Source: an uncultured virus (IMG/VR IMGVR_UViG_3300005680_000091) (taxonomy: Duplodnaviria > Heunggongvirae > Uroviricota > Caudoviricetes). Taken from it: a DNA stretch of 20,000 nucleotides. Below are positions 8,734 to 20,000 of this stretch, piece by piece. The position numbers were made by a program, and so were the translations under genes. The DNA lies in the IMG/VR virus record IMGVR_UViG_3300005680_000091. One strand, 5' to 3'. How positions within the stretch are numbered: position 1 is the stretch's first letter; each line of letters begins with the position of its first letter. The notes under the pieces were generated by a model that made no database searches, had not been told where the DNA came from, and saw nothing but the letters and a program-made list of their open reading frames with translations.

Positions 8734-9125
8734 GGTGTTTCCCGTCAGAGGCGGCCTATCTGCTGTGGTGCCGGAGTAGCACGCCAAGCGTGTTGCCGTG
8801 CCAGGACTGCAACCCGGTGCATAAGGCGCGCATGCTGCAGGTCGGTCGTTGCGAACAGCCGGCGGTGGTGTTCGTGAAGAACAAGGACGGGGAGCTCGTC
8901 GGGCGAGTGCCGACGGGGGGCGGGGCGGGGCCGGTGGCCGAGGAGAGTGTGTTCCTCGTGCGAATCGCGACCCAGCTGCTGGGTGATGCAGCGCTGGCTG
9001 AGCTCATCGGGATCTCGGCGCCCTCGCTGCCGCACTATCGTAACGGCAACAGAACGCTGCCAGGGGAGAAGGTGAGGGTGCTGCGCGCCGCGGTTCGCCG
9101 CGGCGCGGGGCTGCTAGTTGGTTAG
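8730..9125 (+). CDS. Hypothetical protein (131 aa): Cys-rich N-terminus, C-terminal HTH-like segment
   Basis: GTG start overlapping the helicase stop (GTGA); PCQDC...GRC; AALAELIGISAPSLPHYRNGNR. The longer ORF-track version (from 8238) overlaps the helicase. Confidence 0.65.
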   Translation: MRCFPSEAAYLLWCRSSTPSVLPCQDCNPVHKARMLQVGRCEQPAVVFVKNKDGELVGRVPTGGGAGPVAEESVFLVRIATQLLGDAALAELIGISAPSLPHYRNGNRTLPGEKVRVLRAAVRRGAGLLVG

Positions 9126-9337
9126 GTACCTCCCGGTGTGTCGCCCACCCCGTTGAAGTCCCGGAACCCCAGAGACAAGGCGGCGCAGGCCAGGGTGACT
9201 GCCTGTGGAATCGTGGCGCGGCCAGTCTCGTAGTTCTTGACCGTCCGGGCGGAGGTGCCCAGCCAATCCCCAAGCTGCTTCTGCGAAACGCCCATGTGTT
9301 CGCGCCAAGCGCGGAATCGTTCTGCCGTCAGAGGCAC
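9122..9337 (-). CDS. XRE-family HTH DNA-binding protein
   Basis: FRAWREHMGVSQKQLGDWLGTSARTVKNYETG; GGAG RBS before GTG. Confidence 0.85.
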   Translation of the reverse strand: MPLTAERFRAWREHMGVSQKQLGDWLGTSARTVKNYETGRATIPQAVTLACAALSLGFRDFNGVGDTPGGT

Positions 9338-9418
9338 GGTGTGTTCTCCAGTTGTTTTGCTCGCTTCGAGGCCTTTCGCACTCGCTTTGCGGTGTTGCTC
9401 TACCTGAAAGCAACTTGG

Positions 9419-9760
9419 TCATGTAATTCGACCTCCTGTCGCACGAATGGCGGCACGAACCGCCTCTTCCTTATCTTTGGCGCACTCGACCACGAACGAC
9501 ACCGCGTTCTGCGCCTTGCGCCAGCGCTTGAAGTGGGCCTCAAACGAAGGACCGTCATCCTCCCAGTCCGGCAGTCCGAGAACGACGCCGCCGGTGATCT
9601 TCACCACGGCATTGTCGGGAACGTCTTCGATGCCAATGTCTTCAGAAAGCGGCGAGCCATAGACCTCAATCTCTTCGTCCTCGTGCCACGCGCCGTCAGG
9701 CCAGAAGGCTTCATCAAAATAGAAGCGCTTGAGCTCGGTGCCGGTAGTCTTTACGGTCAT
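9419..9760 (-). CDS. Hypothetical acidic protein
   Basis: 113-aa ORF with GGAGGAG RBS and ATGA coupling. Confidence 0.75.
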   Translation of the reverse strand: MTVKTTGTELKRFYFDEAFWPDGAWHEDEEIEVYGSPLSEDIGIEDVPDNAVVKITGGVVLGLPDWEDDGPSFEAHFKRWRKAQNAVSFVVECAKDKEEAVRAAIRATGGRIT

Positions 9761-9933
9761 TTCGCCAACTCCTCCATCGTCCTCCAGGTTGAGTTCCGGG
9801 CCTCTTGCCGCAGCCGCTCGATCTCAAGCTCCTTCATTTTCCGTTCGTGCTGGCGCTTGTCTTCGCTGTTCGCCCACCATGCGAGGGCGATAAAGGGCGA
9901 GGCAGCAGCCAGAATAACCAGTGCGAGGTCCAT
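9757..9933 (-). CDS. Small membrane-anchored protein (58 aa)
   Basis: Hand-translated: MDLALVILAAASPFIALAWWANSEDKRQHERKMKELEIERLRQEARNSTWRTMEELAK; GGAGG RBS; coupled on both sides. Confidence 0.65.
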   Translation of the reverse strand: MDLALVILAAASPFIALAWWANSEDKRQHERKMKELEIERLRQEARNSTWRTMEELAK

Positions 9934-10109
9934 CACTTAGCCTCCCGTTTCGTGGTGTGCCACGCGCAAAACTCGTTCATCTCGTGTGGCCCTTCAGGGT
10001 GGATGCAGCTCTCGTGGCGGCGCTTGATCGGCGCCTTGGCGCCCTTGGCCCAGACGACGAGGTGCTCGACGTGGCCGCAAGTGTGGCACGGGTGGGGTGT
10101 CAGGGTCAT
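9933..10109 (-). CDS. Small Cys/His-rich protein (58 aa)
   Basis: Hand-translated: MTLTPHPCHTCGHVEH...SCIHPEGPHEMNEFCAWHTTKREAK; ATGA/TGATG overlaps. Confidence 0.6.
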   Translation of the reverse strand: MTLTPHPCHTCGHVEHLVVWAKGAKAPIKRRHESCIHPEGPHEMNEFCAWHTTKREAK

Positions 10110-10582
10110 GCGGGCACCTTCGTGGGTATCTCGACGCGCTCCATGAACTTGCCACCGGCGGCACGCGCCTCGGCGTTGATCCGATCAACGGTCATCGCGG
10201 CTTGGGTGAAGCGCCGGTTCGTCCAAGCGCGCAGGTAGCGGTCCATCTTCGTGATGTTCTCGATCAGGATCTCGCGCTCCTCTGTGGTGCAGTTCCAGGC
10301 TTTGCCGGCATCGGCGCGCGCCTTCATTGCGACCAGGACGGTGCCGACGCGATCGGCGACCTGCCAGGCGCCGTCACCCCGGCCGGCGCTGTCCGCCGCG
10401 ACGAGGTTCACGATCTTCGCGATGTGCTCGGCGTGGGCCTTGGTGAAGAGGCCCAGCGGCAGCAGCTTGACGCTCATGTGCAGCGGCGTGAGGATGCGGC
10501 CGATCGCGGCCTGGTCGAGCAGGGCGCCGGTCAGCACCGGGTTGATGCGGCGGCCCCAGCGGTGGGTCATTGGGCGGGGCAT
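10106..10582 (-). CDS. Hypothetical phage protein
   Basis: 158-aa ORF in the coupled operon; alternative start at 10570. Confidence 0.75.
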   Translation of the reverse strand: MPRPMTHRWGRRINPVLTGALLDQAAIGRILTPLHMSVKLLPLGLFTKAHAEHIAKIVNLVAADSAGRGDGAWQVADRVGTVLVAMKARADAGKAWNCTTEEREILIENITKMDRYLRAWTNRRFTQAAMTVDRINAEARAAGGKFMERVEIPTKVPA

Positions 10583-10659
10583 TCGAGCACCTCTTTGCGC
10601 AGTTGGTCCATGGCATCGACCAAGCGATCCAGCAGCTCAAGGGCTTGGGGTTTGGGCAT
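10567..10659 (-). CDS. Small hypothetical protein (30 aa)
   Basis: MPKPQALELLDRLVDAMDQLRKEVLECPAQ with GGAG RBS. Confidence 0.45.
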   Translation of the reverse strand: MPKPQALELLDRLVDAMDQLRKEVLECPAQ

Positions 10660-10831
10660 TTCGATTTCTCCAGAAAATAGGTGCCCCACCGGCACCAGGT
10701 GTTCCATGACCCACAACGGACATCTCCTATCGGATTGAGGTTGTCGAGGGTGCGGCGGGGCGTTGATCAGGTGGTTGCGCGCAGCAGCACGCGGGGTTTG
10801 GTGCGGCCCGGCACCGTGCCGGCGACTTCGA

Positions 10832-11131
10832 TCAGGTCCGGGCGCGGCGCGGCGGCGGCCAGCTGGCGGGCGAGGTTCGGGAGCACACCGTCGCCTCCAG
10901 CTCGAGGAACTCCTCCGGCTCGGGGCACAGCTCCCGCACCAGAAGCGCCTCGCGCACGATGCGGCATTGGTCTTCGAACGGCACGCCGAGGCGCTCAAGG
11001 CGCCGGCCTGCAGTCTCCGGCGAGATATGGCCCGCCGTGACAAGGGTCGCCACGTTGTCACAGAAGGCCCGCAGCCTGTGCTGCAGCCGACGGTCGTGCT
11101 GAGCCCATTCCGGGAACGGATTCAGGTTCAT
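10832..11131 (-). CDS. Hypothetical protein
   Basis: 99-aa ORF with AAGGAG RBS. Confidence 0.65.
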   Translation of the reverse strand: MNLNPFPEWAQHDRRLQHRLRAFCDNVATLVTAGHISPETAGRRLERLGVPFEDQCRIVREALLVRELCPEPEEFLELEATVCSRTSPASWPPPRRART

Positions 11132-11150
11132 GGCAAACTCCTTGTCAGGT

Positions 11151-11165
11151 GGGAGTGCTACTCAC
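11151..11165. promoter_or_regulatory. Operator-like palindrome GGGAG-tgcta-CTCAC
   Basis: Matches GKGAG-N5-CTCMC; lies in a 37-bp intergenic gap. Confidence 0.65.
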
Positions 11166-11168
11166 ACT

Positions 11169-11537
11169 CTATGGAAGATCCGGGCCGGCTGCGGCCTTCT
11201 GTATCGCGGCCAATGCTGCGTTGAAGGTCTCGTCGTGCTGGTCGGCTGCACGGTACATATCCGTGCGTGCGCTCAACGCCTCGAGGGTCAGCTCGGTCAG
11301 CCGGGCAAGGCCTTCGCCTTCCAGTATCTGGCACATGTCGAACACCGTCTTCGCGCAGGCGTAACCCAGCAGCTTGCGCAGGATGGGATCTTGCTGCGGC
11401 TTGGACAGCTTCGCGGTCAGGTCCATCAGCTGGGCGAGCTCAAGCGCCAGAGAGCCGGCCGGGCCATGCTCCACCACGAAGGCTTCGCTGCGCGCCCGGA
11501 AGGTGTCGGTCAGCAGATCGATGTCGTCCTTGTTCAT
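11169..11537 (-). CDS. Hypothetical helical protein (122 aa)
   Basis: ATG 11537 overlaps the DHH gene stop (ATGA). Confidence 0.7.
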   Translation of the reverse strand: MNKDDIDLLTDTFRARSEAFVVEHGPAGSLALELAQLMDLTAKLSKPQQDPILRKLLGYACAKTVFDMCQILEGEGLARLTELTLEALSARTDMYRAADQHDETFNAALAAIQKAAAGPDLP

Positions 11538-12505
11538 TTCAGCCACCCCATCAGCGTGTCGGTGTCCGTCGAAAACCCGGCCGCGTTGCGATGCCCACCA
11601 CCGCCGAACGCCTTGGCGATTGCGCTCACGTCGTAGTCGCCGTTGCTGCGCAGCGAGCAGTGGATTTGGCCGTCACCCGCCATCGACCACACGAGGCCGA
11701 ACGTGCCGGACTTGTTGGCGAGTTCGTGGCCCAGATCAGACGCGAGGAACGACGGAGCGTTGGCCGCGAGGCCGAAGAGCGAATAGCGGGTAAACCCATC
11801 AATCACCACTCCTGGTGCGTTGGCGAAGGGCGCCCACTTGAATACTTCGCACTTCTTCGCCTGTTTCAACGCCGCCTGGACGTTTTGGTTATGGGCGCGG
11901 AGGATGGCGATGCCTTCTTTGAAGATGAAATGCGGACCGACGTTGAACTCATCCCACATTTCGAGTTGCTGATTCAGTTCTTTCCACTGCTCGAAGCTCC
12001 ACGGCTCATAACTGCGCAGCGCGGCGTGGAATTCCTTGGTGCCGTCCAGCTTGAACTGCCAGCGGTCGCGGTCGTCGATGTGTTGGATCAGCATTGGCAC
12101 TTCGGTTCCGGGGTGGAAGTATTCCCAGGCGAGATATGCCCCTGAAAAATTGTCGTCCAGAACGACGTAGTGCTTCAGCGGGTCTTCCCCGCCCAACGGG
12201 ATTGCTTGGTAGCGATCCCCTCGACGATAGCCACCACACCACATCTCGAACGCCGTCTTGTGGTGATCGAGCCAGACGACGCGCTTGGCGCGACTGAGGA
12301 GCAGATCCATGACCTCGCGTGGAAACGAGAAATCAAGGACGTAGATGTCCCGTTCATTGATCTCGAACGTGTTTTCGGACTTGCTGTAGTCCTTGCCGTA
12401 ATCCATCGGCAGATACTCGGCCTCATCACCGAGCTTGAGCCATGCTGCGAAGGCCGCACCGAACCCGTCCGTGCAGTTCGCGTGGTAGATGACGAGGGGT
12501 TTCAT
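11534..12505 (-). CDS. DHH/DHHA1-family phosphoesterase (323 aa)
   Basis: Start moved to ATG 12505: VIYHANCTDGFGAA, YVLDFS, VWLDHHKT, SGAYLAW, IDDRDRW, SLRS..DVSAIAKAFGGGGHRNAAGF. Confidence 0.93.
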   Translation of the reverse strand: MKPLVIYHANCTDGFGAAFAAWLKLGDEAEYLPMDYGKDYSKSENTFEINERDIYVLDFSFPREVMDLLLSRAKRVVWLDHHKTAFEMWCGGYRRGDRYQAIPLGGEDPLKHYVVLDDNFSGAYLAWEYFHPGTEVPMLIQHIDDRDRWQFKLDGTKEFHAALRSYEPWSFEQWKELNQQLEMWDEFNVGPHFIFKEGIAILRAHNQNVQAALKQAKKCEVFKWAPFANAPGVVIDGFTRYSLFGLAANAPSFLASDLGHELANKSGTFGLVWSMAGDGQIHCSLRSNGDYDVSAIAKAFGGGGHRNAAGFSTDTDTLMGWLK

Positions 12506-12807
12506 ATCTTTCTCCGGTAGAGCTTCAAAGGTGTTGGGCTGCCGCGGTCGGACTCGACCCGACCGACGCAGTCCAGGTGCCCGAACCGCACCAGTCGGTC
12601 CATCGCGCTGCGGGCGGTGCAGCGGTTCATGTTGAGCTGATCGGCCACCGCGATTGAGGACCAGACGCGGCCATCGGCCAGCAGCGCCAGGATCTGCTCG
12701 CTGCTGGAGCCGGGCACGATGCGCTCGGCCCGGACGGTGTGCTTGCCCGCGCTGGGTGGCTGGGGCGGGGGCTGGTTGGCGGCTTGGAGTTGGGAGAGGA
12801 GGTTCAT
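12502..12807 (-). CDS. Putative winged-HTH DNA-binding protein
   Basis: EQILALLADGRVWSSIAVADQLNMNRCTARSAMDRLVRFGHL. Confidence 0.7.
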   Translation of the reverse strand: MNLLSQLQAANQPPPQPPSAGKHTVRAERIVPGSSSEQILALLADGRVWSSIAVADQLNMNRCTARSAMDRLVRFGHLDCVGRVESDRGSPTPLKLYRRKI

Positions 12808-12822
12808 GTGAGGTGCGCTCCC
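12808..12822. promoter_or_regulatory. Operator-like palindrome GTGAG-gtgcg-CTCCC
   Basis: Fills almost the whole 17-bp intergenic gap and overlaps the RBS. Confidence 0.6.
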
Positions 12823-12824
12823 TT

Positions 12825-13313
12825 TCAGTGCGAATCTGCTGCCGGCTCCAATGCTTGGAGTAGCCGGTGAAGTGGGTTCCGGATCTTGTCGATCTCTTCC
12901 TCAAGCTGGAGCGCTGCAGCCACCGCCCGAGCCCGAGTCAGGCACGCGTCTGCTCGCCTGAACTCAGCCAGTACCGTCTCCCGGGACCGATCCTCTGAGG
13001 TCTTGACCCGCTGGAGCGAGACGTAGCCTTGTCGATCAGGCGGTTGTTGCTGGTCTCGCACGTATTCGGGCACTCGGATCTCAACCGTCTCGGTCACGAT
13101 AGTCACCCGGACGCTGGAGATGTAGTTGCGGGCTTGGTGGTCTCGCCAGGACGCTGCAGCTTCTTGGTCGTCCCACTCAAAGAACTCGTGAAGGGGGTCG
13201 GCCGGGTCTAGGGCGCTTTCCCACAGCTTGCGGGGCGTTACGACACCGTTGGGGTCTGTAGCTTCCAGCGCCTTGATTCTGGCGCGCAGTAGGTCTTCTC
13301 GGCTGTTGGTCAT
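12825..13313 (-). CDS. Partner protein of the RAMP-like gene (162 aa, mostly helical, function unknown)
   Basis: ATGA overlap with the RAMP-like gene. Contains GVVTPRKLWESALDPADPLHEFFEWDDQEAAASWRDHQARNYISSVRV, a motif type I recognise from phage hypothetical proteins. Confidence 0.8.
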   Translation of the reverse strand: MTNSREDLLRARIKALEATDPNGVVTPRKLWESALDPADPLHEFFEWDDQEAAASWRDHQARNYISSVRVTIVTETVEIRVPEYVRDQQQPPDRQGYVSLQRVKTSEDRSRETVLAEFRRADACLTRARAVAAALQLEEEIDKIRNPLHRLLQALEPAADSH

Positions 13314-14074
13314 GCTGCCACCTTGAACCCGCGCGCTGCGGCCGTGCGGTTGAACCAGTCGAGTAGTTCCTCGGTGGTCAGGTCATAAGCCACCGGGTTG
13401 TCGAACGCGGCCTGCTGTGCGTCTCGACCGCCGGACTGAATGATGCGCAGGAAGTCAGGGTCGTCCGGGTTGCAGATGCTGAATTGCCCGTAGGATCCCT
13501 TGCCCTTCTCAGGGCGCCAGTCTCCGACGCCGATCGTGATGCCTGCTGCCGAGACGAGGTTGATCATCGGCGGCTGCTTGAGCAGCGGCGACACGAACTT
13601 GACGCGGATCTTCGTCGCCCACTCCCTCATGATCGCGCGGGTTCGCACGTCAGGGGTCTTGGCCATGTCTGCCGAGCGAACGGTCGTGCTCAAGACCTCG
13701 GGCACGCCCCAGACCGGGATCAGGTCTCCGGCCACGAACACAAGGCGGCCAATCGAGGCCTTCGAAATTCCCGGCAGGTCCAGCGCTGCGGTCATCAGCG
13801 CACCCTTAAACGCCGTGGCCGGGATGCCGACCAGTGTCGGGCCGCCTTTTACGCGATGGGCGGACGACCTGAACTCGGCGATCGGGTCGTGCTTCAGACT
13901 CGAGGCCTTCTCGGCTGCGTTCTTTTTCGGCGCCGGGAACAACAGCTCGCGCATCGATCGTTCGCTGATTGCGTTGTGGATGAGGGGGCTGTTTCCGATG
14001 ATGCAGAGGTTCAGCTCCTGCGTTTCGATCTTCAGCACCTCAGGTGCTGCCGTTTCCGTCTTCTTCGTTGCCAT
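13310..14074 (-). CDS. Stand-alone Cas7/RAMP-like RNA-binding protein (Vipr-like, 254 aa)
   Basis: Start ATG 14074 with AAGGAG RBS. RAMP-like motifs in the expected order: first strand LCIIGNSPLIHN; GIPATAFKGAL (cf. IPGSSLKGAL of Csm3/Cmr4-type RAMPs); C-terminal Gly-rich loop GITIGVGDWRPEKGKGSYGQF. Confidence 0.75.
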   Translation of the reverse strand: MATKKTETAAPEVLKIETQELNLCIIGNSPLIHNAISERSMRELLFPAPKKNAAEKASSLKHDPIAEFRSSAHRVKGGPTLVGIPATAFKGALMTAALDLPGISKASIGRLVFVAGDLIPVWGVPEVLSTTVRSADMAKTPDVRTRAIMREWATKIRVKFVSPLLKQPPMINLVSAAGITIGVGDWRPEKGKGSYGQFSICNPDDPDFLRIIQSGGRDAQQAAFDNPVAYDLTTEELLDWFNRTAAARGFKVAA

Positions 14075-14097
14075 GTCCTTCTCCTTGTCTGAGTAGT

Positions 14098-14362
14098 GCT
14101 CCATGCACTGGGAGGGCACCTCTTGAGAAGTGCCTACCCGCTACATGCGCCATGTCCTGTCAAACCCCGCCACGCCACACCCAGCCCCGCCGTGTCTATG
14201 AACTGCTCGGCGCTTCACGCACCGGGAGGGCACCTCTTGAGAAGTGCCTACCCGCTACATGCGCGTCACCTAGCCCCACCGGACCCCGCCGCGCCGGGCC
14301 TCGCCTAGTCTACGAACTGCCTTTGATGCTTCACGCACCGCCAAGGGTTGGCTCCCTTGGCG
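14098..14362 (-). ncRNA. Putative guide-RNA array: two ~115-nt units with (GGY-NN)n tracts between conserved hairpin-containing repeats
   Basis: 46-bp direct repeat at 14105-14150 and 14219-14264 (1 mismatch). Conserved 5' element CGGTGCGTGAAGC-N5/7-GCAGTTCRTA. Ten-pentamer tracts at 14261-14310 and 14147-14196. Hairpin GGCACUUC-UCAA-GAGGUGCC. Confidence 0.8.
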
Positions 14363-14374
14363 CTACGAAGTAGC

Positions 14375-14707
14375 TCAGGCGGTTGCGTCCTCCAGCGCCG
14401 GCGCCGCCTCGATAACCGCGCGCACGCTCTTCTCGTTGCGGCCGGACATGAACTTCTTCCAGGCGGCCTTCGCGGCGGCCGGCAGGCTGCCCCGGTTGGC
14501 CGCCAGGACGGCGTGCGGGATGTCCAACACCTTGCGCCCGCTGCGCAGGTCGGTGATCCGGTAGAGGCCGATCGTGTCGTGCGCCTCGTGGACGCCGAAC
14601 CAGAACTGCGTGTTGTCGACGGTGACGCGGAAACGGTGGCCGACCACGTCGCGGGTTTCGTTGGTGCCGTCGCGGGTCGGGGTGTAGATGCGGAATGCGG
14701 AGGTCAT
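14375..14707 (-). CDS. Hypothetical protein
   Basis: 110-aa ORF, AAGGAG RBS, ATGA coupling. Confidence 0.75.
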   Translation of the reverse strand: MTSAFRIYTPTRDGTNETRDVVGHRFRVTVDNTQFWFGVHEAHDTIGLYRITDLRSGRKVLDIPHAVLAANRGSLPAAAKAAWKKFMSGRNEKSVRAVIEAAPALEDATA

Positions 14708-14919
14708 TTCAGATGCTCCTTCCAGTCCCAGACCGCCTGCCGTGCCCCTTCATCGAACGGGTGGTAGCTGGCCTCGGGGTTGATGTAATCCAGGAGTTCA
14801 TCGGGCGTGAAGTTGGTAGCCAGCAGCTCTCCGGCGGCCCACCTATATCCGGATTCGTACTGCCACTGGCGACGTTGCGAACGGTGTTTGTGCCACCAGG
14901 CTTTGATGGTTTTGATCAT
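14704..14919 (-). CDS. Hypothetical protein (71 aa)
   Basis: Start moved to ATG 14919 (MIKTIKAWWHKH...); ATGA overlaps on both sides. Confidence 0.7.
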   Translation of the reverse strand: MIKTIKAWWHKHRSQRRQWQYESGYRWAAGELLATNFTPDELLDYINPEASYHPFDEGARQAVWDWKEHLK

Positions 14920-15125
14920 CGTGTCATTTCCTTCTGGTTGCGCCGGGCCGCCTCTTCCATGGCCTGGTCGAAGTAGTTGATCCGGCCGCGGGCGCCGACC
15001 CGGCCGATGTGCTTGGCGCGTCCGGTGTGGGCGTGGCACACGTACCAGGCCTTGCCGATGGAATTGACACCCCACGGGCCGGCCGGCCAGCCCTTGGGGA
15101 AGAAGTGGGGTTGGCAGACGGCCAT
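14916..15125 (-). CDS. Hypothetical protein
   Basis: 69-aa ORF with AGGAG RBS. Confidence 0.7.
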   Translation of the reverse strand: MAVCQPHFFPKGWPAGPWGVNSIGKAWYVCHAHTGRAKHIGRVGARGRINYFDQAMEEAARRNQKEMTR

Positions 15126-15127
15126 GC

Positions 15128-15481
15128 TTAGCGCTCCTGTCCTGTGGCGCGGGCGTAGGCGGCGCGCGCTCTCGCCCGCCAGTCGTCATCCAGCGCGACG
15201 CGCGCCGCGTCGTAACCCCACTGGTTCGGGTTTTCCTGGCCGATGATTTCGCGCAAGACGGACACAAGCCCGGTCCGCACCGCGAACCGCTGTTCTGCGC
15301 AGACCAACGCGCGGTGCATGCGAGTGACCGTACCTTCAGGTAGGCCAGTGTTTCGCAGGAAAGCCAGCACGTCTTCGTGATCCTCACTCGCGCCTTCTCC
15401 CTCGAGGAGGCCCTTGATCTGCTCATTGACGAGCCACAGCGGGTGGTCGTCATCCAGTTCGTCGGTGATCTTGTGGCTCAT
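15128..15481 (-). CDS. Hypothetical protein
   Basis: 117-aa ORF with AGGAG RBS. Confidence 0.75.
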   Translation of the reverse strand: MSHKITDELDDDHPLWLVNEQIKGLLEGEGASEDHEDVLAFLRNTGLPEGTVTRMHRALVCAEQRFAVRTGLVSVLREIIGQENPNQWGYDAARVALDDDWRARARAAYARATGQER

Positions 15482-15654
15482 GCTGCGCTCCTGTGGGCCG
15501 CCCGGAGTGCTTCAGTCCAGGTGCAGCCGGTCTGTCGTTGAAAAGCCTTTGCGCTGCGGATCTCGTCTTGCGCGCGATCCTGCTCGGCCTGTCGGAGGTA
15601 GCGCTCACGCGCCGATTCAATCTGTCGGCGCTGCGCGGTGGTGATGCTCTTCAT
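15478..15654 (-). CDS. Hypothetical protein (58 aa)
   Basis: MKSITTAQRRQIESARERY...; GAGGAG RBS; ATGA overlaps. Confidence 0.65.
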   Translation of the reverse strand: MKSITTAQRRQIESARERYLRQAEQDRAQDEIRSAKAFQRQTGCTWTEALRAAHRSAA

Positions 15655-16214
15655 GCTGCACTCCTCTTCAGGTGGTTCAACTCTTCGAACTGGGCCACGT
15701 AGGTCCGGGTGAGTTCCGGCGACGAGAACACCAGCTCCCCGGTCTCTTCGTCCTTGGCCGAGTACCAGAGCGGCGACTGCATCGCGATCAGCACCTGGTG
15801 GCGCATCCACTCGGCGTCCGGGAAGGCGCGCTGTGCCGGCGCTCGGGCCGCGGTGCGCAGGCGGCGCATCACGTTCTGCACCTTCGCGCGCCAGTTCGGA
15901 TCCGCGGCGAGCACTTCACCCATCGGCCGGCGGGCGGCTTCGTCCTCGGCGGCGATCCGCAGTGCGAGGTCGGTGGCTGTGTAGGTGCGCGTCGAGTATT
16001 TCGGCACGCTGTCCGGCGTCTCGGACACGGTGGCCAGGCCTTGAGCGCGCAGGCTCTCCAGGATGCGGACCCGGTAGTCGTCCATGCTCCAGTAGGGGCG
16101 CGTGGTGATCGGGCCGCCGACCAGCCGGCGCAGCGCCTGGATCTGGTCAAACTCCTCATCGGCGTGGCCGCTGGCGTAGCGCGGGTGAGGCAGCATGCGG
16201 GTGCGGGTCGTCAT
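15651..16214 (-). CDS. Hypothetical protein
   Basis: 187-aa ORF, GGAG RBS, coupled. Confidence 0.75.
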   Translation of the reverse strand: MTTRTRMLPHPRYASGHADEEFDQIQALRRLVGGPITTRPYWSMDDYRVRILESLRAQGLATVSETPDSVPKYSTRTYTATDLALRIAAEDEAARRPMGEVLAADPNWRAKVQNVMRRLRTAARAPAQRAFPDAEWMRHQVLIAMQSPLWYSAKDEETGELVFSSPELTRTYVAQFEELNHLKRSAA

Positions 16215-16468
16215 CGTGTGGTCTCCAGTTGCGTGTCGATCTTGCGGATCACCTCGAGGTAACGGGGTTGGCCCGCGCCACGCTTGAGGTGTTCGATGTC
16301 GCGCCGCGCATCGGATGTGAACATTTCACGGTTGGCGTGGGCGTAGCGCCAGTGGATCCGGTCTCGGTGGGCCAACCCGGCGCCGCCGATTGGCTGACCT
16401 CGGTAGGTCAGCCTGTAACCGCATGCGGCGGCGGTGAAGGAGAGTTGGCTCGGGTCGAAGGCGGGCAT
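16211..16468 (-). CDS. Hypothetical protein
   Basis: 85-aa ORF, GGAGGA RBS. Confidence 0.7.
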   Translation of the reverse strand: MPAFDPSQLSFTAAACGYRLTYRGQPIGGAGLAHRDRIHWRYAHANREMFTSDARRDIEHLKRGAGQPRYLEVIRKIDTQLETTR

Positions 16469-16532
16469 GGTTCAATCCTCCGGCCAGGGCGGCACGTCGT
16501 CGTAAGGGGTGTGGAGTTGCATCTCGTTCTCC

Positions 16533-16931
16533 TCAGAGGATGGTGTAGCGCTCTGCGAAGCGACGTTGCGCCTCGTCCGCTTGGTAGCGGGTGACGCACA
16601 GCTGCGGTTCGGGCGGCTTTTCCCAGACCGCGGTCTGCTGCACATCGACGAGGAACCAACCCTTCGCGCGACGCTCGAGGGTGACCATCGTTGCTTGGCG
16701 GCTGTACTTGTAGTACTTCGCCACGCGCCCACCTGACCAGGTGTGGAACCGGGCGCCTTTCCAGAGCTTGACCGGCAGCCCCAGTTCGCCAAGCCGCGAG
16801 GAAGCGAGGTCAGCTTCGGCCTCGATGTCGCTGTAGCAGTTGAAGGTGTGGGTCAGGGCAGCTCCGTTGGCTTTGTGCAGGGCCGCCTCAATGGCGACGG
16901 CGTTGTCTTCGTGAATTCGGATCGGCTTCAT
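16533..16931 (-). CDS. Hypothetical protein (132 aa)
   Basis: Start moved to ATG 16931 (MKPIRIHEDN), GGAG RBS. Confidence 0.75.
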   Translation of the reverse strand: MKPIRIHEDNAVAIEAALHKANGAALTHTFNCYSDIEAEADLASSRLGELGLPVKLWKGARFHTWSGGRVAKYYKYSRQATMVTLERRAKGWFLVDVQQTAVWEKPPEPQLCVTRYQADEAQRRFAERYTIL

Positions 16932-16950
16932 GGTGTGGTCTCCGGTTGAA

Positions 16951-16973
16951 GAAGGGGAGCCCGGCTCCCCTTC
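16951..16973. promoter_or_regulatory. Palindrome/hairpin GAAGGGGAGC-ccg-GCTCCCCTTC containing GGGAG-N5-CTCCC
   Basis: 10-bp perfect stem, intergenic; core motif at 16955-16969. Confidence 0.65.
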
Positions 16974-16980
16974 AGGTCGA

Positions 16981-17880
16981 TCAGTGCGCCAGCTCGAGGG
17001 CGTGCGCTTCGTCGGCGGTGCGCTCGTCCGACTCGAACCAGCCGGCCGGGGCGACAACCTGGGCGAGGCGATCGGCCAGCGTCCAGAGCGCGCGGTTCAG
17101 TTTCACGTCCTGATCCACGCCGGTCACTGCGCGGGTGGTGGTGCGTCGGCCGTTGCTCGAGCGCCCGCGCAGCCCACCCTTGATCAGGTTCTCCTGGATC
17201 CGGTTGAACGTCGTGAAGAGGTCGTTCTTGCGGTCCTCGAAGCGGCGGGCTTCCAGCAGCGAGCTGGCCAGGATCGGCGCCTTGGCCGGGTCGTCATACT
17301 TCAGGGTAAGCGCCGCCTCGGCCAGGGCGCGCTGCTGGTGGTCGGACAGCGAGATGCTGCGGTAGGCCTGGATCCGGGTGGTGGCGGCCTCGATGTTGTC
17401 CAGCGTGCGGATGCAGCCGTCGATCACGTCGTCGACCAGGTTCTGGCGTCCGCGGTGCAGCACCTTGGTGTCGTCGCAGATGTCACCGGCGACCAGGCCG
17501 TTGTCGCAGATCATGCGGAAGAAGCCGGTCATCAGGCGGTACGAGCTCGAGCCGTCGTGGCTGTTCAGCAGCAGGATCTCCGGCGTGATGCCTTCGACCA
17601 TCGCGCTGTTGGCATGGCGTAGCCGCAGCAGGTGGCGAGTGTGCTCGCGCTTGCCTTGGTCGCGCACCCGGGTCTGGCGGGCCTCGAACGGCTCGAAGCC
17701 GGCGTCGCGCAGCCCGGCCAGCACCGAGCTGGTAGGGATGAATCCGTAGCGGTCGCCGCGGCTCTCGTGGGCTTCCTGGGCGAACACACTCGGCGCGGCG
17801 CGCAGGATCTCGTCGTTGGTCAGGGGGCGGTCGCGGCGGATGATGGAACCGGAAGCGGCGGCGGATGCGTAGCGGATCAT
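16981..17880 (-). CDS. DUF932/DUF945-family protein (299 aa)
   Basis: Start ATG 17880 with AGGAG RBS; APSVFA..AHESR..RY.FIPT, EHTRHLLRLR, EILLLNSHDGSSSY....GFFRMICDNGLV, FNRIQENLIKGG, KLNRALW. Confidence 0.9.
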   Translation of the reverse strand: MIRYASAAASGSIIRRDRPLTNDEILRAAPSVFAQEAHESRGDRYGFIPTSSVLAGLRDAGFEPFEARQTRVRDQGKREHTRHLLRLRHANSAMVEGITPEILLLNSHDGSSSYRLMTGFFRMICDNGLVAGDICDDTKVLHRGRQNLVDDVIDGCIRTLDNIEAATTRIQAYRSISLSDHQQRALAEAALTLKYDDPAKAPILASSLLEARRFEDRKNDLFTTFNRIQENLIKGGLRGRSSNGRRTTTRAVTGVDQDVKLNRALWTLADRLAQVVAPAGWFESDERTADEAHALELAH

Positions 17881-17967
17881 GGTGATTCTCCTGGTTGTGA
17901 GGCGTACAGGTGCGCCTGGGGGAAACTGCACTCGGCTGCCCGGGTGGGCAGGCGGCTGGAGTCTCAG
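17881..17967 (-). repeat. Intergenic structured element, copy 1
   Basis: Core 17926-17967 is similar to 19191-19234; CTGCCC/GGGCAG stem. Confidence 0.75.
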
Positions 17968-18044
17968 CGGCGGACGATCTCGGTCACGAGGTAACCCACC
18001 ACGAGGCCAATCAGGGAGACGACGAGGGCGTCGGTGCAGGTCAT
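17964..18044 (-). CDS. Small membrane peptide (26 aa)
   Basis: MTCTDALVVSLIGLVVGYLVTEIVRR; ATGA overlap. Confidence 0.45.
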   Translation of the reverse strand: MTCTDALVVSLIGLVVGYLVTEIVRR

Positions 18045-18307
18045 CGCGGCACCCTCGCGTTCGTGCGGCCGTACTGGACGGGGTAGCACTTCAAGCAGTT
18101 GAGCCCAAGTCCATGGGGGCACGGCGGCAGCTGACCCGGACCGCCTTTCTTCGGCACCCCGAGACCCTTGTAGAACTCGTCGGCGGTCATCGGCCGGTGA
18201 GTGACCGCATCCGCGCCGCAGCTCGGGCAGTTCGGCACCGTGTTCGCGACTTGGTACCACTCGTAGTGGTGGCCGCAGTGGCAGCAGGTTCGAGACGTCA
18301 TCGACAT
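18041..18307 (-). CDS. Small Cys-rich zinc-binding protein
   Basis: CCHCG, CPSCG, CPHG..NCLKC; GAGGAG RBS. Confidence 0.65.
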   Translation of the reverse strand: MSMTSRTCCHCGHHYEWYQVANTVPNCPSCGADAVTHRPMTADEFYKGLGVPKKGGPGQLPPCPHGLGLNCLKCYPVQYGRTNARVPR

Positions 18308-18308
18308 T

Positions 18309-18491
18309 TCAGGTCTCCTCAGTTCGGTTCGGTTCGTCGTCAGGCGACCACCAGGTGTAGAAGCCGCCGTCGGGCGACTCAGCCCACACGACCGGCTCGC
18401 CGTCGCTGTTTCGCTCGGTGCCGTAGGCGGCGATGTTGCCCTCGCGTTTCTCTTGTGCGGCCAGGGCGAGGGCTTCGTGGATCGTGGTCAT
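18309..18491 (-). CDS. Hypothetical protein (60 aa)
   Basis: Start ATG 18491 (MTTIHEALAL), GAGGAG RBS. Confidence 0.7.
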   Translation of the reverse strand: MTTIHEALALAAQEKREGNIAAYGTERNSDGEPVVWAESPDGGFYTWWSPDDEPNRTEET

Positions 18492-18501
18492 GGTGGTCTC
18501 C

Positions 18502-18717
18502 TCAGTGCGTGGTTGCCGGCCGGCAAAGCCCTTGCTCGATGAGAGACGCGGCGGTCCTGCCGTACCAGCCTTGAAGCGTCCAGGCGGCGCCGGTGTCGAT
18601 GAGGTGCTGGAAGGCCTCGAGGATCTCATCCTCGGTGTGCTCTTCCCCGTCGAAGCCTTCGATCATCGCGCAGCAGTCGAAGGTGGTCAGCGTGGCGCGG
18701 GTGGTGGTGGTGGCCAT
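18502..18717 (-). CDS. Small phage hypothetical protein (71 aa)
   Basis: Start ATG 18717, GGAG RBS. FQHLIDTGAAWTLQGWYGRTAASLIEQG motif resembles a recurrent phage family. Confidence 0.8.
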   Translation of the reverse strand: MATTTTRATLTTFDCCAMIEGFDGEEHTEDEILEAFQHLIDTGAAWTLQGWYGRTAASLIEQGLCRPATTH

Positions 18718-18732
18718 GATGATCTCCAGAAG

Positions 18733-18753
18733 AAGGGGAGCGCTGCTCCCCTT
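18733..18753. promoter_or_regulatory. Palindrome/hairpin AAGGGGAGC-gct-GCTCCCCTT containing GGGAG-N5-CTCCC
   Basis: 9-bp perfect stem; near-copy of 16951-16973. Confidence 0.65.
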
Positions 18754-18757
18754 TTGA

Positions 18758-18856
18758 TCAGACGAAAAGCCAGGGCAGCACAACCAGCGTGCCGACCAGG
18801 GCGAAGAAGATGGCGGCGCCGATCAGCGACTCGCCGAGGGTCTCGCGGCGCTTCAC
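18758..18856 (-). CDS. Small membrane peptide (32 aa)
   Basis: GTG start overlapping the upstream stop; KRRETLGESLIGAAIFFALVGTLVVLPWLFV. Confidence 0.5.
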   Translation of the reverse strand: MKRRETLGESLIGAAIFFALVGTLVVLPWLFV

Positions 18857-19143
18857 GCTGCCGCCTTCAGCGCCACCTGACGCTCGCGCACCTTCAGGGT
18901 GGTCCGGGTGCCCTCGCGGCTGCAGGCGGTGATCTGGGCCGGCGTGAGCAGCGCCTTCACCTTCTTGGTGTCGAGCGAGCAGGTCTCGGTCGTGGTGACC
19001 TCGATCTCGGCGACGCGCCCGGCGTAGAGGCCATCGCCTTCAGCCTTGACGGCTTCTTTGATCGCGTCGAACTCGGCGGCGAGCGGGGCGATGAGGGCCT
19101 GGAGCTCCAGGGCGCGGTCAATCAGCTTCTTGGTGATCTTCAT
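18853..19143 (-). CDS. Hypothetical phage protein
   Basis: 96-aa ORF, GGAG RBS; N-terminal coiled coil, LDTKKVK motif. Confidence 0.8.
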   Translation of the reverse strand: MKITKKLIDRALELQALIAPLAAEFDAIKEAVKAEGDGLYAGRVAEIEVTTTETCSLDTKKVKALLTPAQITACSREGTRTTLKVRERQVALKAAA

Positions 19144-19234
19144 GGTGGTTCTCCGTTTTTGCGCGTAGGAGTGCGCGGGGTGGGTAGAGGCTGCACTCGA
19201 CTGCCCTGATCGGGGCAGGCGGCTGAAGTCTCAG
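19144..19234 (-). repeat. Intergenic structured element, copy 2
   Basis: Core 19191-19234 is similar to 17926-17967. Confidence 0.75.
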
Positions 19235-19440
19235 GACTTGGCGACGAACTGGACGGTGCGCGGATCAACACGAGGGGTGAAGTCCCGCTCGATCAGGAAG
19301 ATGTCGCCGTTGCTCCACTGCTCGGCTTTCTCGAACGCGTCGAGTTCGAGCGGTGCGCCGCGGAGGTCGCAGGGTTGCACGCCTTCGATCGGGAACACTG
19401 CGCCGTGGGTGCGGCGAGTCGGGAGCTTGATGTTGGTCAT
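19231..19440 (-). CDS. Hypothetical protein (69 aa), first gene of the leftward early operon
   Basis: Start ATG 19440 (MTNIKLPTRR), GGAG RBS. Confidence 0.7.
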   Translation of the reverse strand: MTNIKLPTRRTHGAVFPIEGVQPCDLRGAPLELDAFEKAEQWSNGDIFLIERDFTPRVDPRTVQFVAKS

Positions 19441-19499
19441 GTCGTTCTCCAGCTGGTTGGTTGGAGCAGCGACCTCGTGGGAAGTCGCTCTTCTCAACC

Positions 19500-19520
19500 G
19501 AGGGGAGTGCCGCTCCCCTC
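19500..19520. promoter_or_regulatory. Palindrome GAGGGGAG-tgccg-CTCCCCTC
   Basis: Contains GGGAG-N5-CTCCC (19503-19517); lies in the operon leader. Confidence 0.65.
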
Positions 19521-19678
19521 TGGTGCGAGTCCGTTATCGACTCGGTGCCTCTGTCGCCTATCCACCTGTATCTTCGGTGGGTCTTGGGGTCCGACGGATT
19601 GCAGCTCCGTCTCGGCATTCCCTTCTTACGGTCTGGGCTACCGGTTTCGAGGCGCTGTTCTGTCTCTCAACGGTTCCC

Positions 19679-19707
19679 ATGATAGTGAGTCCCGCTCACC
19701 TCGTCAA
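19679..19707 (-). promoter_or_regulatory. Strong leftward sigma70 promoter with an operator in the spacer
   Basis: Minus strand TTGACG (19707-19702), 17 bp, TATCAT (19684-19679). A/T-rich UP-like tract upstream. GTGAG-tcccg-CTCAC (19685-19699) sits between the boxes. Confidence 0.85.
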
Positions 19708-20000
19708 GTAGTTTTTTCCAGAAAAGTGGAAAAATAAATCAGCGGTATTTTTGGGCAGGAGTGGGGGAGTTTTCGAGGTTTTTGCCCCACCTACCACCCC
19801 CTACGGCCCGCAAACCCGCGCCAATGCTGGAAGTTGATGATGCGGGACGCATAAGGTGGGGGAGAGGGGGGCGACCCCGTATACTTCCCCGCGCCAGAAA
19901 TTTCTCCCGCGTGGTTCTCGTGGTGGTCTTTTTTCTACTCCCTATTTTTCTCCCCAGTAGATATTTCTCTATATTCTCCCCTACTCCCCTACTATTATTA

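What the first reader, a model, noticed from the sequence alone, without database searches (positions are those of the whole stretch)
12825..14362. Candidate phage RNA-guided system: lone Cas7/RAMP-like gene + partner gene + non-CRISPR periodic repeat array (VIPR-like)
Seen in sequence: a compact minus-strand cassette of array (14098-14362), then a 254-aa protein with RAMP-like motifs (IIGNSPLIHN, GIPATAFKGAL, G-rich loop GVGDWRPEKGKGSYGQF), then a translationally coupled 162-aa protein. No cas1/2/3/5/6/8/10 is recognisable in the window. Established: Cas7-type RAMPs polymerise along guide RNA with a fixed nucleotide step. Inference: the protein filaments along the array RNA at one subunit per 5-nt GGY-NN unit and forms a minimal programmable, probably nuclease-free, binding complex, e.g. 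against competing phages or host defence genes. From memory, this matches the recently reported VIPR (Viral Interference Programmable Repeat) architecture; I cannot verify that assignment here. Standard annotation would call it two hypothetical genes and an intergenic region.
Basis: partly seen in the sequence, partly recalled or inferred. Interest (0 to 1): 0.95.

Follow-up and report, generated by a model that had tools for sequence, protein, structure and literature searches.

The report
Phage VIPR system, hairpin-cut guide array
This is a phage's copy of the recently described VIPR RNA-guided gene-silencing system, unusual in pairing one protein lineage with another lineage's guide layout, whose spacer hairpins look like cut sites for the host enzyme RNase III.

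Summary
The 254-aa protein has a Cas7/Csm3-like RAMP fold. Its only PDB sequence hit is SUSP1 Vipr, and it keeps Vipr's GGY-reading R, D, W and R. Two nine-unit GGY/NN tracts lie upstream.

The variant feature is the array. Vipr and Vap belong to a ~250-aa clade whose arrays are mostly staggered. Here the guides sit between three copies of a long hairpin. A model built only from type II-like spacers ranks these three copies first and finds no between-guide use in 100 clade loci. That stem has fixed length and covaries. It fixes U-G and U-A pairs (108 and 106 of 117 copies), matching the E. coli RNase III distal box. The implied cut falls exactly at the start of a small 5' hairpin. So host RNase III probably matures the guides (inferred, untested).

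Related phages vary the guides in 5-nt steps, and one lacks the whole cassette. No target was found above chance.

The parts
14321..14375 (-). Spacer copy c0 (leader): short version of the processing-type stem plus 5' hairpin B; lacks the U-G/U-A box on its upper stem
   Evidence: R1 hit E 3.7e-4; folds
14266..14310 (-). Guide 1 tract, 9 pentamers; NN = TA GA CC GC GG CC GG TA GA
   Evidence: differs, with a 5-nt insertion, in a soil relative
14209..14265 (-). Spacer copy c1: about 21-bp irregular stem (G.G mismatch, 2x2 loop, U-G/U-A box, tetraloop); alternative hairpin B at 14223-14209; predicted 3'-arm cut between 14224 and 14223
   Evidence: R1 hit E 5.4e-8; cut site inferred
14152..14196 (-). 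Guide 2 tract, 9 pentamers; NN = AC GG TG GT GT GG TT AG AT
   Evidence: identical in a soil relative whose genes are about 92% identical, 5-nt insertion variant in a sludge run
14091..14151 (-). Spacer copy c2: same stem; hairpin B at 14109-14095 with a compensatory A-U pair; predicted cut between 14110 and 14109 would start the vipr-vap mRNA
   Evidence: R1 hit E 1.5e-9; cut site inferred
14081..14086 (-). Ribosome-binding site AAGGAG of vipr
   Evidence: sequence
13310..14074 (-). vipr: 254-aa RAMP (RRM, thumb, G-loop) with a C-terminal helical extension of about 50 aa that SUSP1 Vipr lacks
12825..13313 (-). vap: 162-aa accessory protein, translationally coupled; small N-terminal helical domain plus long helical hairpin; not Vap1
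   Evidence: homologue next to vipr in 78 of 88 viral loci
12808..14374 (-). Whole cassette as a present/absent module between ORF 14707-14375 and ORF 12807-12502
   Evidence: contigs of run X9 join the two flanking genes directly (table 7)
19679..19707 (-). Only sigma-70-like promoter found in 9000-20000 (10 of 12 matches), about 5.3 kb upstream; suggests the cassette is part of a long early transcript
   Evidence: 1 found, 1.2 expected in shuffles, so weak; none in 12700-14800

Best explanation
A phage VIPR system. The cassette is transcribed within a long early message. Host RNase III cuts the spacer stems, releasing two guides of about 110 nt and the vipr-vap mRNA. After cutting, each downstream piece starts with hairpin B at its very 5' end. 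Vipr polymerises at one subunit per pentamer, buries each GGY and presents the NN pairs. These read double-stranded DNA two bases in three and repress a competing phage or satellite gene without cutting it. Vap is a non-catalytic helper. The protein pair comes from the ~250-aa staggered-array clade, while the array has the spacer of type II (P. fulva-like) systems, so the locus is a mosaic. Shown here: fold, residues, synteny, arrays, spacer homology and covariation. Taken from published SUSP1 work: filament, skip rule, repression. Inferred: RNase III cleavage, cut sites, Vap role, target class.
For: RAMP fold: Foldseek top hits Csm3 and type VII Cas7, E about 1e-5; VIA Z 8.8, rmsd 3.7, 150 aligned to a Cmr-beta chain. 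Only PDB sequence hit is SUSP1 Vipr, E 0.0029 single and 0.00023 profile; hhalign 94%. SUSP1 R138, D177, W178, R179 map to R146, D185, W186, R187; the two arginines are invariant in 116 of 116 sequences, D in 113. Clade arrays: 343 of 575 tracts end in GGCAG. The window protein nests in that clade (SH-aLRT 96 for 77 rows, quick tree) and is only 23-26% identical to type II Viprs. In 53 type II-like loci the stem descriptor hits 203 times (52 loci with two or more; 6 on the reverse strand), against 22 hits in 132 clade loci (24 reverse). 87% of cells pair and 16 of 17 pairs change on both sides. Model R1, built without window sequence, ranks the three window copies first. Stem pairs 11 and 12 are U-G in 108 and U-A in 106 of 117 unique copies and in both full window copies, while pairs 7-10 vary freely. 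PMC1540722 names UA/UG as the canonical distal box and an 11-bp helix as the minimum. The next intergenic R1 hits lie between early genes of the same phage (19179-19230, E 0.014; 17914-17963, E 0.08). SUSP1 guides are also flanked by hairpins of about 17-23 bp. Relatives change guide length by 5 nt and array length by one 116-nt unit.
Against: No RNA evidence: the one RNA run laid gave no contig over the array. No target above chance. SUSP1 K33 and K82, needed for silencing there, are not conserved in the alignment; the H17 position is N by ungapped reading. The proximal box is imperfect in the window (A.C, U.U and G-C where E. coli prefers A-U), and c0 has no upper U-G/U-A box. The type II spacers were picked by an anchor motif and a folding cut-off, the structure was read from them, and they are related, so the pairing statistics are inflated. 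One clade sub-lineage carries a single short copy just before vipr (7 near-identical loci), so the element is not wholly foreign to the clade. R1 does not hit SUSP1. The host is unknown.
Confidence: 0.7

Rival explanations
1. VIPR, but the spacer is a structured guide tail or cap bound by Vipr or Vap (two hairpins plus an H-type pseudoknot, like the SUSP1 3' pseudoknot), processed by another nuclease or by Vipr itself.
For: The two-hairpin fold is only 0.9-2.4 kcal/mol weaker than the long stem. Hairpin B covaries across the three copies, and its loop can pair with a downstream stretch kept only in c0 and c1 (sequence). SUSP1 guides carry a 3' pseudoknot.
Against: Does not explain the fixed stem length, the fixed U-G/U-A pairs or the similar stems between ordinary early genes. 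Hairpin B has low probability in the uncut precursor (0.00-0.19), which fits folding after a cut.
Confidence: 0.17
2. VIPR with a self-cleaving ribozyme between guides, like the hammerhead-interspersed type I and V arrays, but of an undescribed class.
For: n+1 copies flank n guides; ribozyme arrays are reported for VIPR.
Against: No Rfam match at E up to 5 over the array and none relevant in three type II loci. The conserved part is a simple stem with few invariant unpaired bases.
Confidence: 0.04
3. A decaying or self-regulatory cassette: the guides no longer have targets, or act on the phage's own genes.
For: No external target found; guide 2 has three GAC units; the cassette is absent from some relatives.
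Against: Both ORFs are intact. Guide 2 is unchanged in a relative about 8% diverged in the genes. No site in the window reached 15 of 20 NN matches under the 1-nt skip.
Confidence: 0.06
4. A remnant or minimal CRISPR-Cas module (Cas7-like, as in type IV-B) using contiguous spacers.
For: Fold hits are Cas7-group RAMPs; weak PADLOC Cas5 hit.
Against: No CRISPR repeat-spacer array. The Vipr structures are not among the fold hits listed (fold library dated April 2026), but sequence points to Vipr. Homologues sit beside GGYNN tracts.
Confidence: 0.02

Closest known systems
VIPR systems (bioRxiv 10.64898/2026.04.26.720920 and .720927)
   Same: Phage-borne vipr plus vap, GGY/NN guides of about 9 units, conserved G-loop and thumb residues, no CRISPR array.
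   Different: Vipr is 254 aa with a C-terminal extension, against 195 aa in SUSP1. Vap is unrelated to Vap1. The type number could not be assigned because the figures and data tables are not held.
Type II VIPR, P. fulva-like loci (LESphi2 L150; L152-L204)
   Same: Array upstream of vipr, n+1 copies of the same spacer stem, period about 110-115 nt.
   Different: Vipr only 23-26% identical. All 53 loci carry a LESphi2-type vap and none carries the window-type vap. L159 matches 6 of the 8 residue positions the paper quotes for P. fulva Vipr.
Staggered-array VIPR clade (L001-L132; Mycobacterium phage Saal gp51/gp52 as a distant named example)
   Same: Vipr mostly 40-58% identical (Saal 33%), same Vap family (Saal gp52 E 2e-29 to the profile).
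   Different: Their guides abut with GGCAG or GGCGG boundaries; none of 100 sources searched uses the stem between guides.
RNase III processing signals (T7 R1.1-derived minimal substrate, PMC1540722; five T7 signals in a polycistronic precursor, PMC3867540)
   Same: About two helical turns, UA/UG distal box below a short loop, internal loop near the cut, position between genes of an early transcript.
   Different: Imperfect proximal box; cleavage untested; host enzyme unknown.
Cas7-group RAMPs (Csm3, Cmr4, type VII Cas7)
   Same: RRM core, thumb and G-loop fold.
   Different: 9-18% identity over the top structural matches; no crRNA array or partner cas genes seen.

Membership tests
VIPR | RAMP fold with RRM, thumb and G-loop | tested here: met
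VIPR | Homology to Vipr and its GGY-reading residues | tested here: met
   R138, D177, W178, R179 kept; K33 and K82 not conserved, H17 position is N
VIPR | Minimal vipr + vap locus without CRISPR array or other cas genes | tested here: met
   for the window only; about 37 kb of the contig unseen
VIPR | Adjacent GGY/NN tracts of 9-16 units | tested here: met
   9 units each, counting GAC units
VIPR | Viral or proviral setting | tested here: met
   helicase, prim-pol/VapE, SNF2, phage repressors; record G001 is a virus record
VIPR | vrRNA expressed and bound by Vipr | not testable with these tools
   RNA run X15 gave no contig over the array; contigs cannot show ends
VIPR | Natural target under the 1-nt skip rule | tested here: inconclusive
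   exact and near-exact scans at chance level
VIPR | No self-target at 80% NN match or more | tested here: met
   window only
VIPR type II | Vipr in the SUSP1/P. fulva clade | tested here: not met
   (quick tree, long branches)
VIPR type II | vap1 accessory gene | tested here: not met
VIPR type II | Guides separated by structured invariant segments | tested here: met
Hammerhead-interspersed VIPR arrays (types I, V) | Hammerhead ribozyme between guides | tested here: not met
   no Rfam match at E up to 5; no hammerhead core by inspection
Bacterial RNase III substrate | Helix of 11 bp or more above the cut, with UA/UG distal box | tested here: met
   c1 and c2; not c0
Bacterial RNase III substrate | Proximal box GC, AU/UA, AU, AU/UA | tested here: inconclusive
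   GC kept; other positions are a 2x2 loop and a G-C pair in the window, mostly A-U or U.U in type II copies
Bacterial RNase III substrate | Cleavage by the enzyme | not testable with these tools
   needs experiment

The most novel reading that the evidence does not exclude
VIPR guide arrays are swappable modules matured by host RNase III. A fixed-length stem with the RNase III distal box cuts type II-like arrays across at least 52 loci and was acquired by a Vipr/Vap pair from the staggered-array clade. Cutting refolds the downstream piece into a 5'-terminal hairpin (with a possible pseudoknot), the opposite end from the SUSP1 cap. This would supply the guide-maturation step that the searched VIPR texts do not give, and would show that a long-form Vipr accepts guides made by either route.
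Probability: 0.55. Interest if true: 0.65.

Novelty: new variant of a known kind. Interest (0 to 1): 0.55.

Why it matters
VIPR is a new, minimal programmable DNA-binding system, and how its guides are cut from arrays is not stated in the texts searched ('RNase III' occurs 0 times in the three VIPR preprints; no paper held has VIPR, vrRNA and RNase III together). The spacer stem gives base-level cut predictions that one rnc-mutant experiment can test, and a design rule for multiplexed guide arrays. The mosaic locus suggests guide arrays and effectors evolve as separable modules. Figures, Tables S1-S3 and Data S1-S4 of the discovery paper are not held and may already list this locus or this architecture; the protein is in NCBI.

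Tried and rejected
Targets: exact 18-base patterns for both guides in viral contigs gave 0 and 0. The guide 2 pattern of 20 bases in genome contigs gave 0. 16-base patterns gave 5 and 14 stretches, in the ratio expected from composition and without convergence on one gene. Guide 2 with up to 2 mismatches in 401 genomes of one family gave 1 hit against 2 control hits; with up to 3 mismatches in 5 genomes, 2 hits. That family was a guess; the host is unknown (searches did not settle it). Guide 1 was not run against whole genomes or metagenome contigs.

Spacer as a known ribozyme: no Rfam hit; twister, pistol and hatchet layouts, compared from recall, did not fit. An exact spacer pattern found nothing in viral contigs and, in metagenome contigs, two records identical to the window plus one chance hit in a coding gene.

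Vap function: no Pfam, NCBIfam or PADLOC family, only an unknown-function PHROG. No Foldseek match at E 0.001; the best rows are forkhead winged helices at E about 0.4; VIA hits cover only the helical hairpin, Z up to 7.2. The N-terminal domain was not folded alone. Complex prediction of Vipr with Vap was not available. Small-share RNA runs are no evidence of expression. Earlier scan findings: none returned. The careful tree did not finish; only the quick tree was read.

Full report
Observation. The cassette is as described. On the minus strand, an array region is followed by a 254-aa ORF (14074-13310) and a 162-aa ORF (13313-12825) coupled by an ATGA overlap. The 114-nt tandem period holds two GGYNN tracts whose scores, 8 and 6.4, exceed the maximum of 4.7 in 200 Markov simulations of the window. 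Each tract has nine pentamers if GAC units are counted. The window is phage DNA: RecD-like helicase, prim-pol/VapE, VRR-NUC, SNF2 and repressor-like genes. A virus record, G001, differs at 5 of 16,536 shared positions and has the same array.

The protein is a Vipr. An AlphaFold2 model from 120 sequences (mean pLDDT 85) matches Csm3 and type VII Cas7 chains by Foldseek (E about 1e-5) and a Cmr-beta chain by VIA-align (Z 8.8, rmsd 3.7, 150 residues). The single PDB sequence hit is SUSP1 Vipr, 36pp_D (E 0.0029; profile E 0.00023). The structure preprint names D177, W178, R179 and R138 as GGY readers. They align to D185, W186, R187 and R146; both arginines are invariant in 116 of 116 sequences. 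SUSP1 K33 and K82 are not conserved in that alignment, and the H17 position is N34 by ungapped reading, so the DNA-clamping surface may differ. The protein also has about 50 extra C-terminal residues.

Homologues carry the same system. Of 88 viral loci, 78 have the Vap homologue and 72 have GGYNN tracts on the vipr strand, against 1 on the opposite strand. Of 44 genome loci the counts are 18, 40 and 1. In this clade guides abut: 343 of 575 tracts end in GGCAG, the staggered layout of the discovery paper. The window protein nests among them (quick tree, SH-aLRT 96 for the 77-row group; careful search unfinished). Its Vap is unrelated to SUSP1 Vap1 and has no clear fold match.

The array does not follow its clade. 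Three copies of a structured spacer flank the two guides. In each copy the best fold is one long irregular stem, with a two-hairpin alternative 0.9-2.4 kcal/mol weaker. The same anatomy appeared upstream of vipr in Pseudomonas phage LESphi2, whose Vipr groups with SUSP1. I fetched 53 loci of that group. All carry a LESphi2-type vap, 28 of their ORFs hit SUSP1 Vap1, none hits the window-type Vap profile, and one matches 6 of 8 quoted P. fulva residues; I therefore treat them as type II-like. From 156 tracts, 139 anchored spacers were thinned to 42. In their alignment 87% of cells pair and 16 of 17 pairs change on both sides; selection and relatedness inflate these numbers. A covariance model built from them alone ranks the three window copies first of 9 matches (E 1.5e-9, 5.4e-8, 3.7e-4, rough calibration). 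In 100 sources (99 of the 132 clade loci plus Saal) it finds 8 matches: one short copy before vipr in 7 near-identical loci and one weak hit, never a series between guides. An independent descriptor gives 203 hits in 53 type II-like loci against 22 in 132 clade loci, the latter equal to reverse-strand background. The locus is thus a mosaic of a staggered-clade protein pair and a type II-like array. Direction of exchange is not shown, and the phage could also have reused its own intergenic stems.

What the spacer does (inferred). The stem has nearly fixed length (187 of 203 hits at 30-32 nt). Pairs 7-10 vary freely, yet pair 11 is U-G in 108 and pair 12 is U-A in 106 of 117 unique copies, as in both full window copies; the descriptor did not require this. 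PMC1540722 reports UA/UG as the canonical distal box of E. coli RNase III, a GC pair at proximal position 1, an 11-bp minimal helix, and single-strand cuts at internal loops that leave protective 3' hairpins. Pair 6 is mostly G-C, five steps from the U-G pair; that spacing matches the minimal substrate as I recall it, since the figure is not held. With that register and a 2-nt overhang, the 3'-arm cut falls between 14224 and 14223 and between 14110 and 14109, exactly before the first base of hairpin B, which covaries across the three copies. A released guide 2 would be 114 nt if only the 3' arm is cut. Weaker model hits lie between ordinary early genes (19179-19230, 17914-17963; a third, 12174-12232, is inside a gene and probably chance), as T7 uses five RNase III signals in one precursor (PMC3867540). 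The only sigma-70-like site found is 5.3 kb upstream, a weak hint that guides must be cut from a long transcript. SUSP1 guides are flanked by long hairpins too, though the model does not hit them. Against this: the proximal box is imperfect, c0 lacks the box, and nothing was measured.

Variation in relatives (contigs laid at 80% likeness, 4 runs). In soil run X5 the gene contig is 91.7% identical, the contig over guide 2 (14122-14253) has no difference, and the contig over guide 1 differs and gains 5 nt. In sludge run X13 one contig has a 5-nt insertion in guide 2 and another skips 116 nt, leaving a one-guide array. In sediment run X9 contigs leave the window at 14375 and 14388 with letters matching the start of ORF 12807-12502 (24 of 25), an empty site lacking 12808-14374; the same run also holds a low-depth contig over vipr. 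Cluster sizes agree with patchy presence: helicase 45 and SNF2 24 members, Vipr 4 and Vap 6. Only 40 of 250 base differences were shown, so NN-versus-GGY variation could not be counted.

Targets. None above chance, and no self-target in the window. One lead: units 2-9 of guide 1 match in codon phase a phage AAA_24 (Sak4-like, name recalled) gene in L209, 17 of 18 bases; 3 further relatives among 17 show the same eight residues. It is 1 of 14 chance-level hits, so I give it about 15%.

Comparison and verdict. It is a VIPR system and works like one; it is not type II by protein or vap, and its type number cannot be read from the text held. Papers seen: 10.64898/2026.04.26.720920 whole text without figures and a term search of its supplement.720927 parts 1-2 of 6 and passages; 2026.10.15.759431 part 1 of 8 and passages; 2026.10.21.760802, PMC1540722 and PMC3867540 passages only. 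'RNase III' is absent from the three VIPR texts and no held paper joins the terms, but figures and data tables were not visible. Verdict: new variant of a known kind, interest 0.55; confidence about 0.97 that it is VIPR and about 0.7 for the full reading with RNase III maturation and mosaic origin.

Noticed in passing
window 19179-19230 and 17914-17963 (minus): Intergenic stems between early genes that resemble the array spacer (R1 E 0.014 and 0.08); possible general RNase III sites of the early operon.
   Followed up: partly
window 16948-16972, 18729-18753, about 19500-19520 (minus): A second family of intergenic GC-rich hairpins (GGGGAGC...CTCCCC) just before ribosome-binding sites; a half copy sits at the downstream edge of the cassette, 12824-12808.
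   Followed up: no
L055 2780-2960 and 4100-4420: The nearest tree neighbour uses GGA-rich pentamers with a different boundary motif (AACGGCGGTAG), a non-canonical guide code in the same clade.
   Followed up: no
L021, L022, L026, L029, L030, L036, L038, just before vipr: A staggered-array sub-lineage carries one short copy of the spacer stem between array and vipr start.
   Followed up: partly
L149 27670-29275 (SUSP1): SUSP1 vrRNAs are flanked by long hairpins of about 17-23 bp, not mentioned in the texts searched; candidates for RNase III processing.
   Followed up: partly
L209 553-1470 (minus): Phage AAA_24 ATPase gene whose conserved DPAGPGYE stretch matches guide 1 units 2-9 in codon phase; a lead only.
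   Followed up: partly
L151 1076-1330 (Mycobacterium phage Saal): Annotated gp51 starts about 50 codons too early, inside a staggered GGYNN array; 27 Mycobacterium and 5 Gordonia phage records carry a relative of this Vipr.
   Followed up: no
L012, L111, L114, L117: Vipr relatives with no GGYNN tract at my threshold within the DNA held; may use other pentamers or have lost guides.
   Followed up: no
window 16981-17880 and 11534-12499 (minus): DUF932 gene (common on conjugative plasmids) and a DHH phosphoesterase gene in the same early region; possible anti-defence neighbours.
   Followed up: no
G001 C1 about 5940-6251 (L146, minus): Small ORF upstream of the window that looks like an H-NS-type DNA-binding protein by inspection (motif recalled, not scanned).
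   Followed up: no
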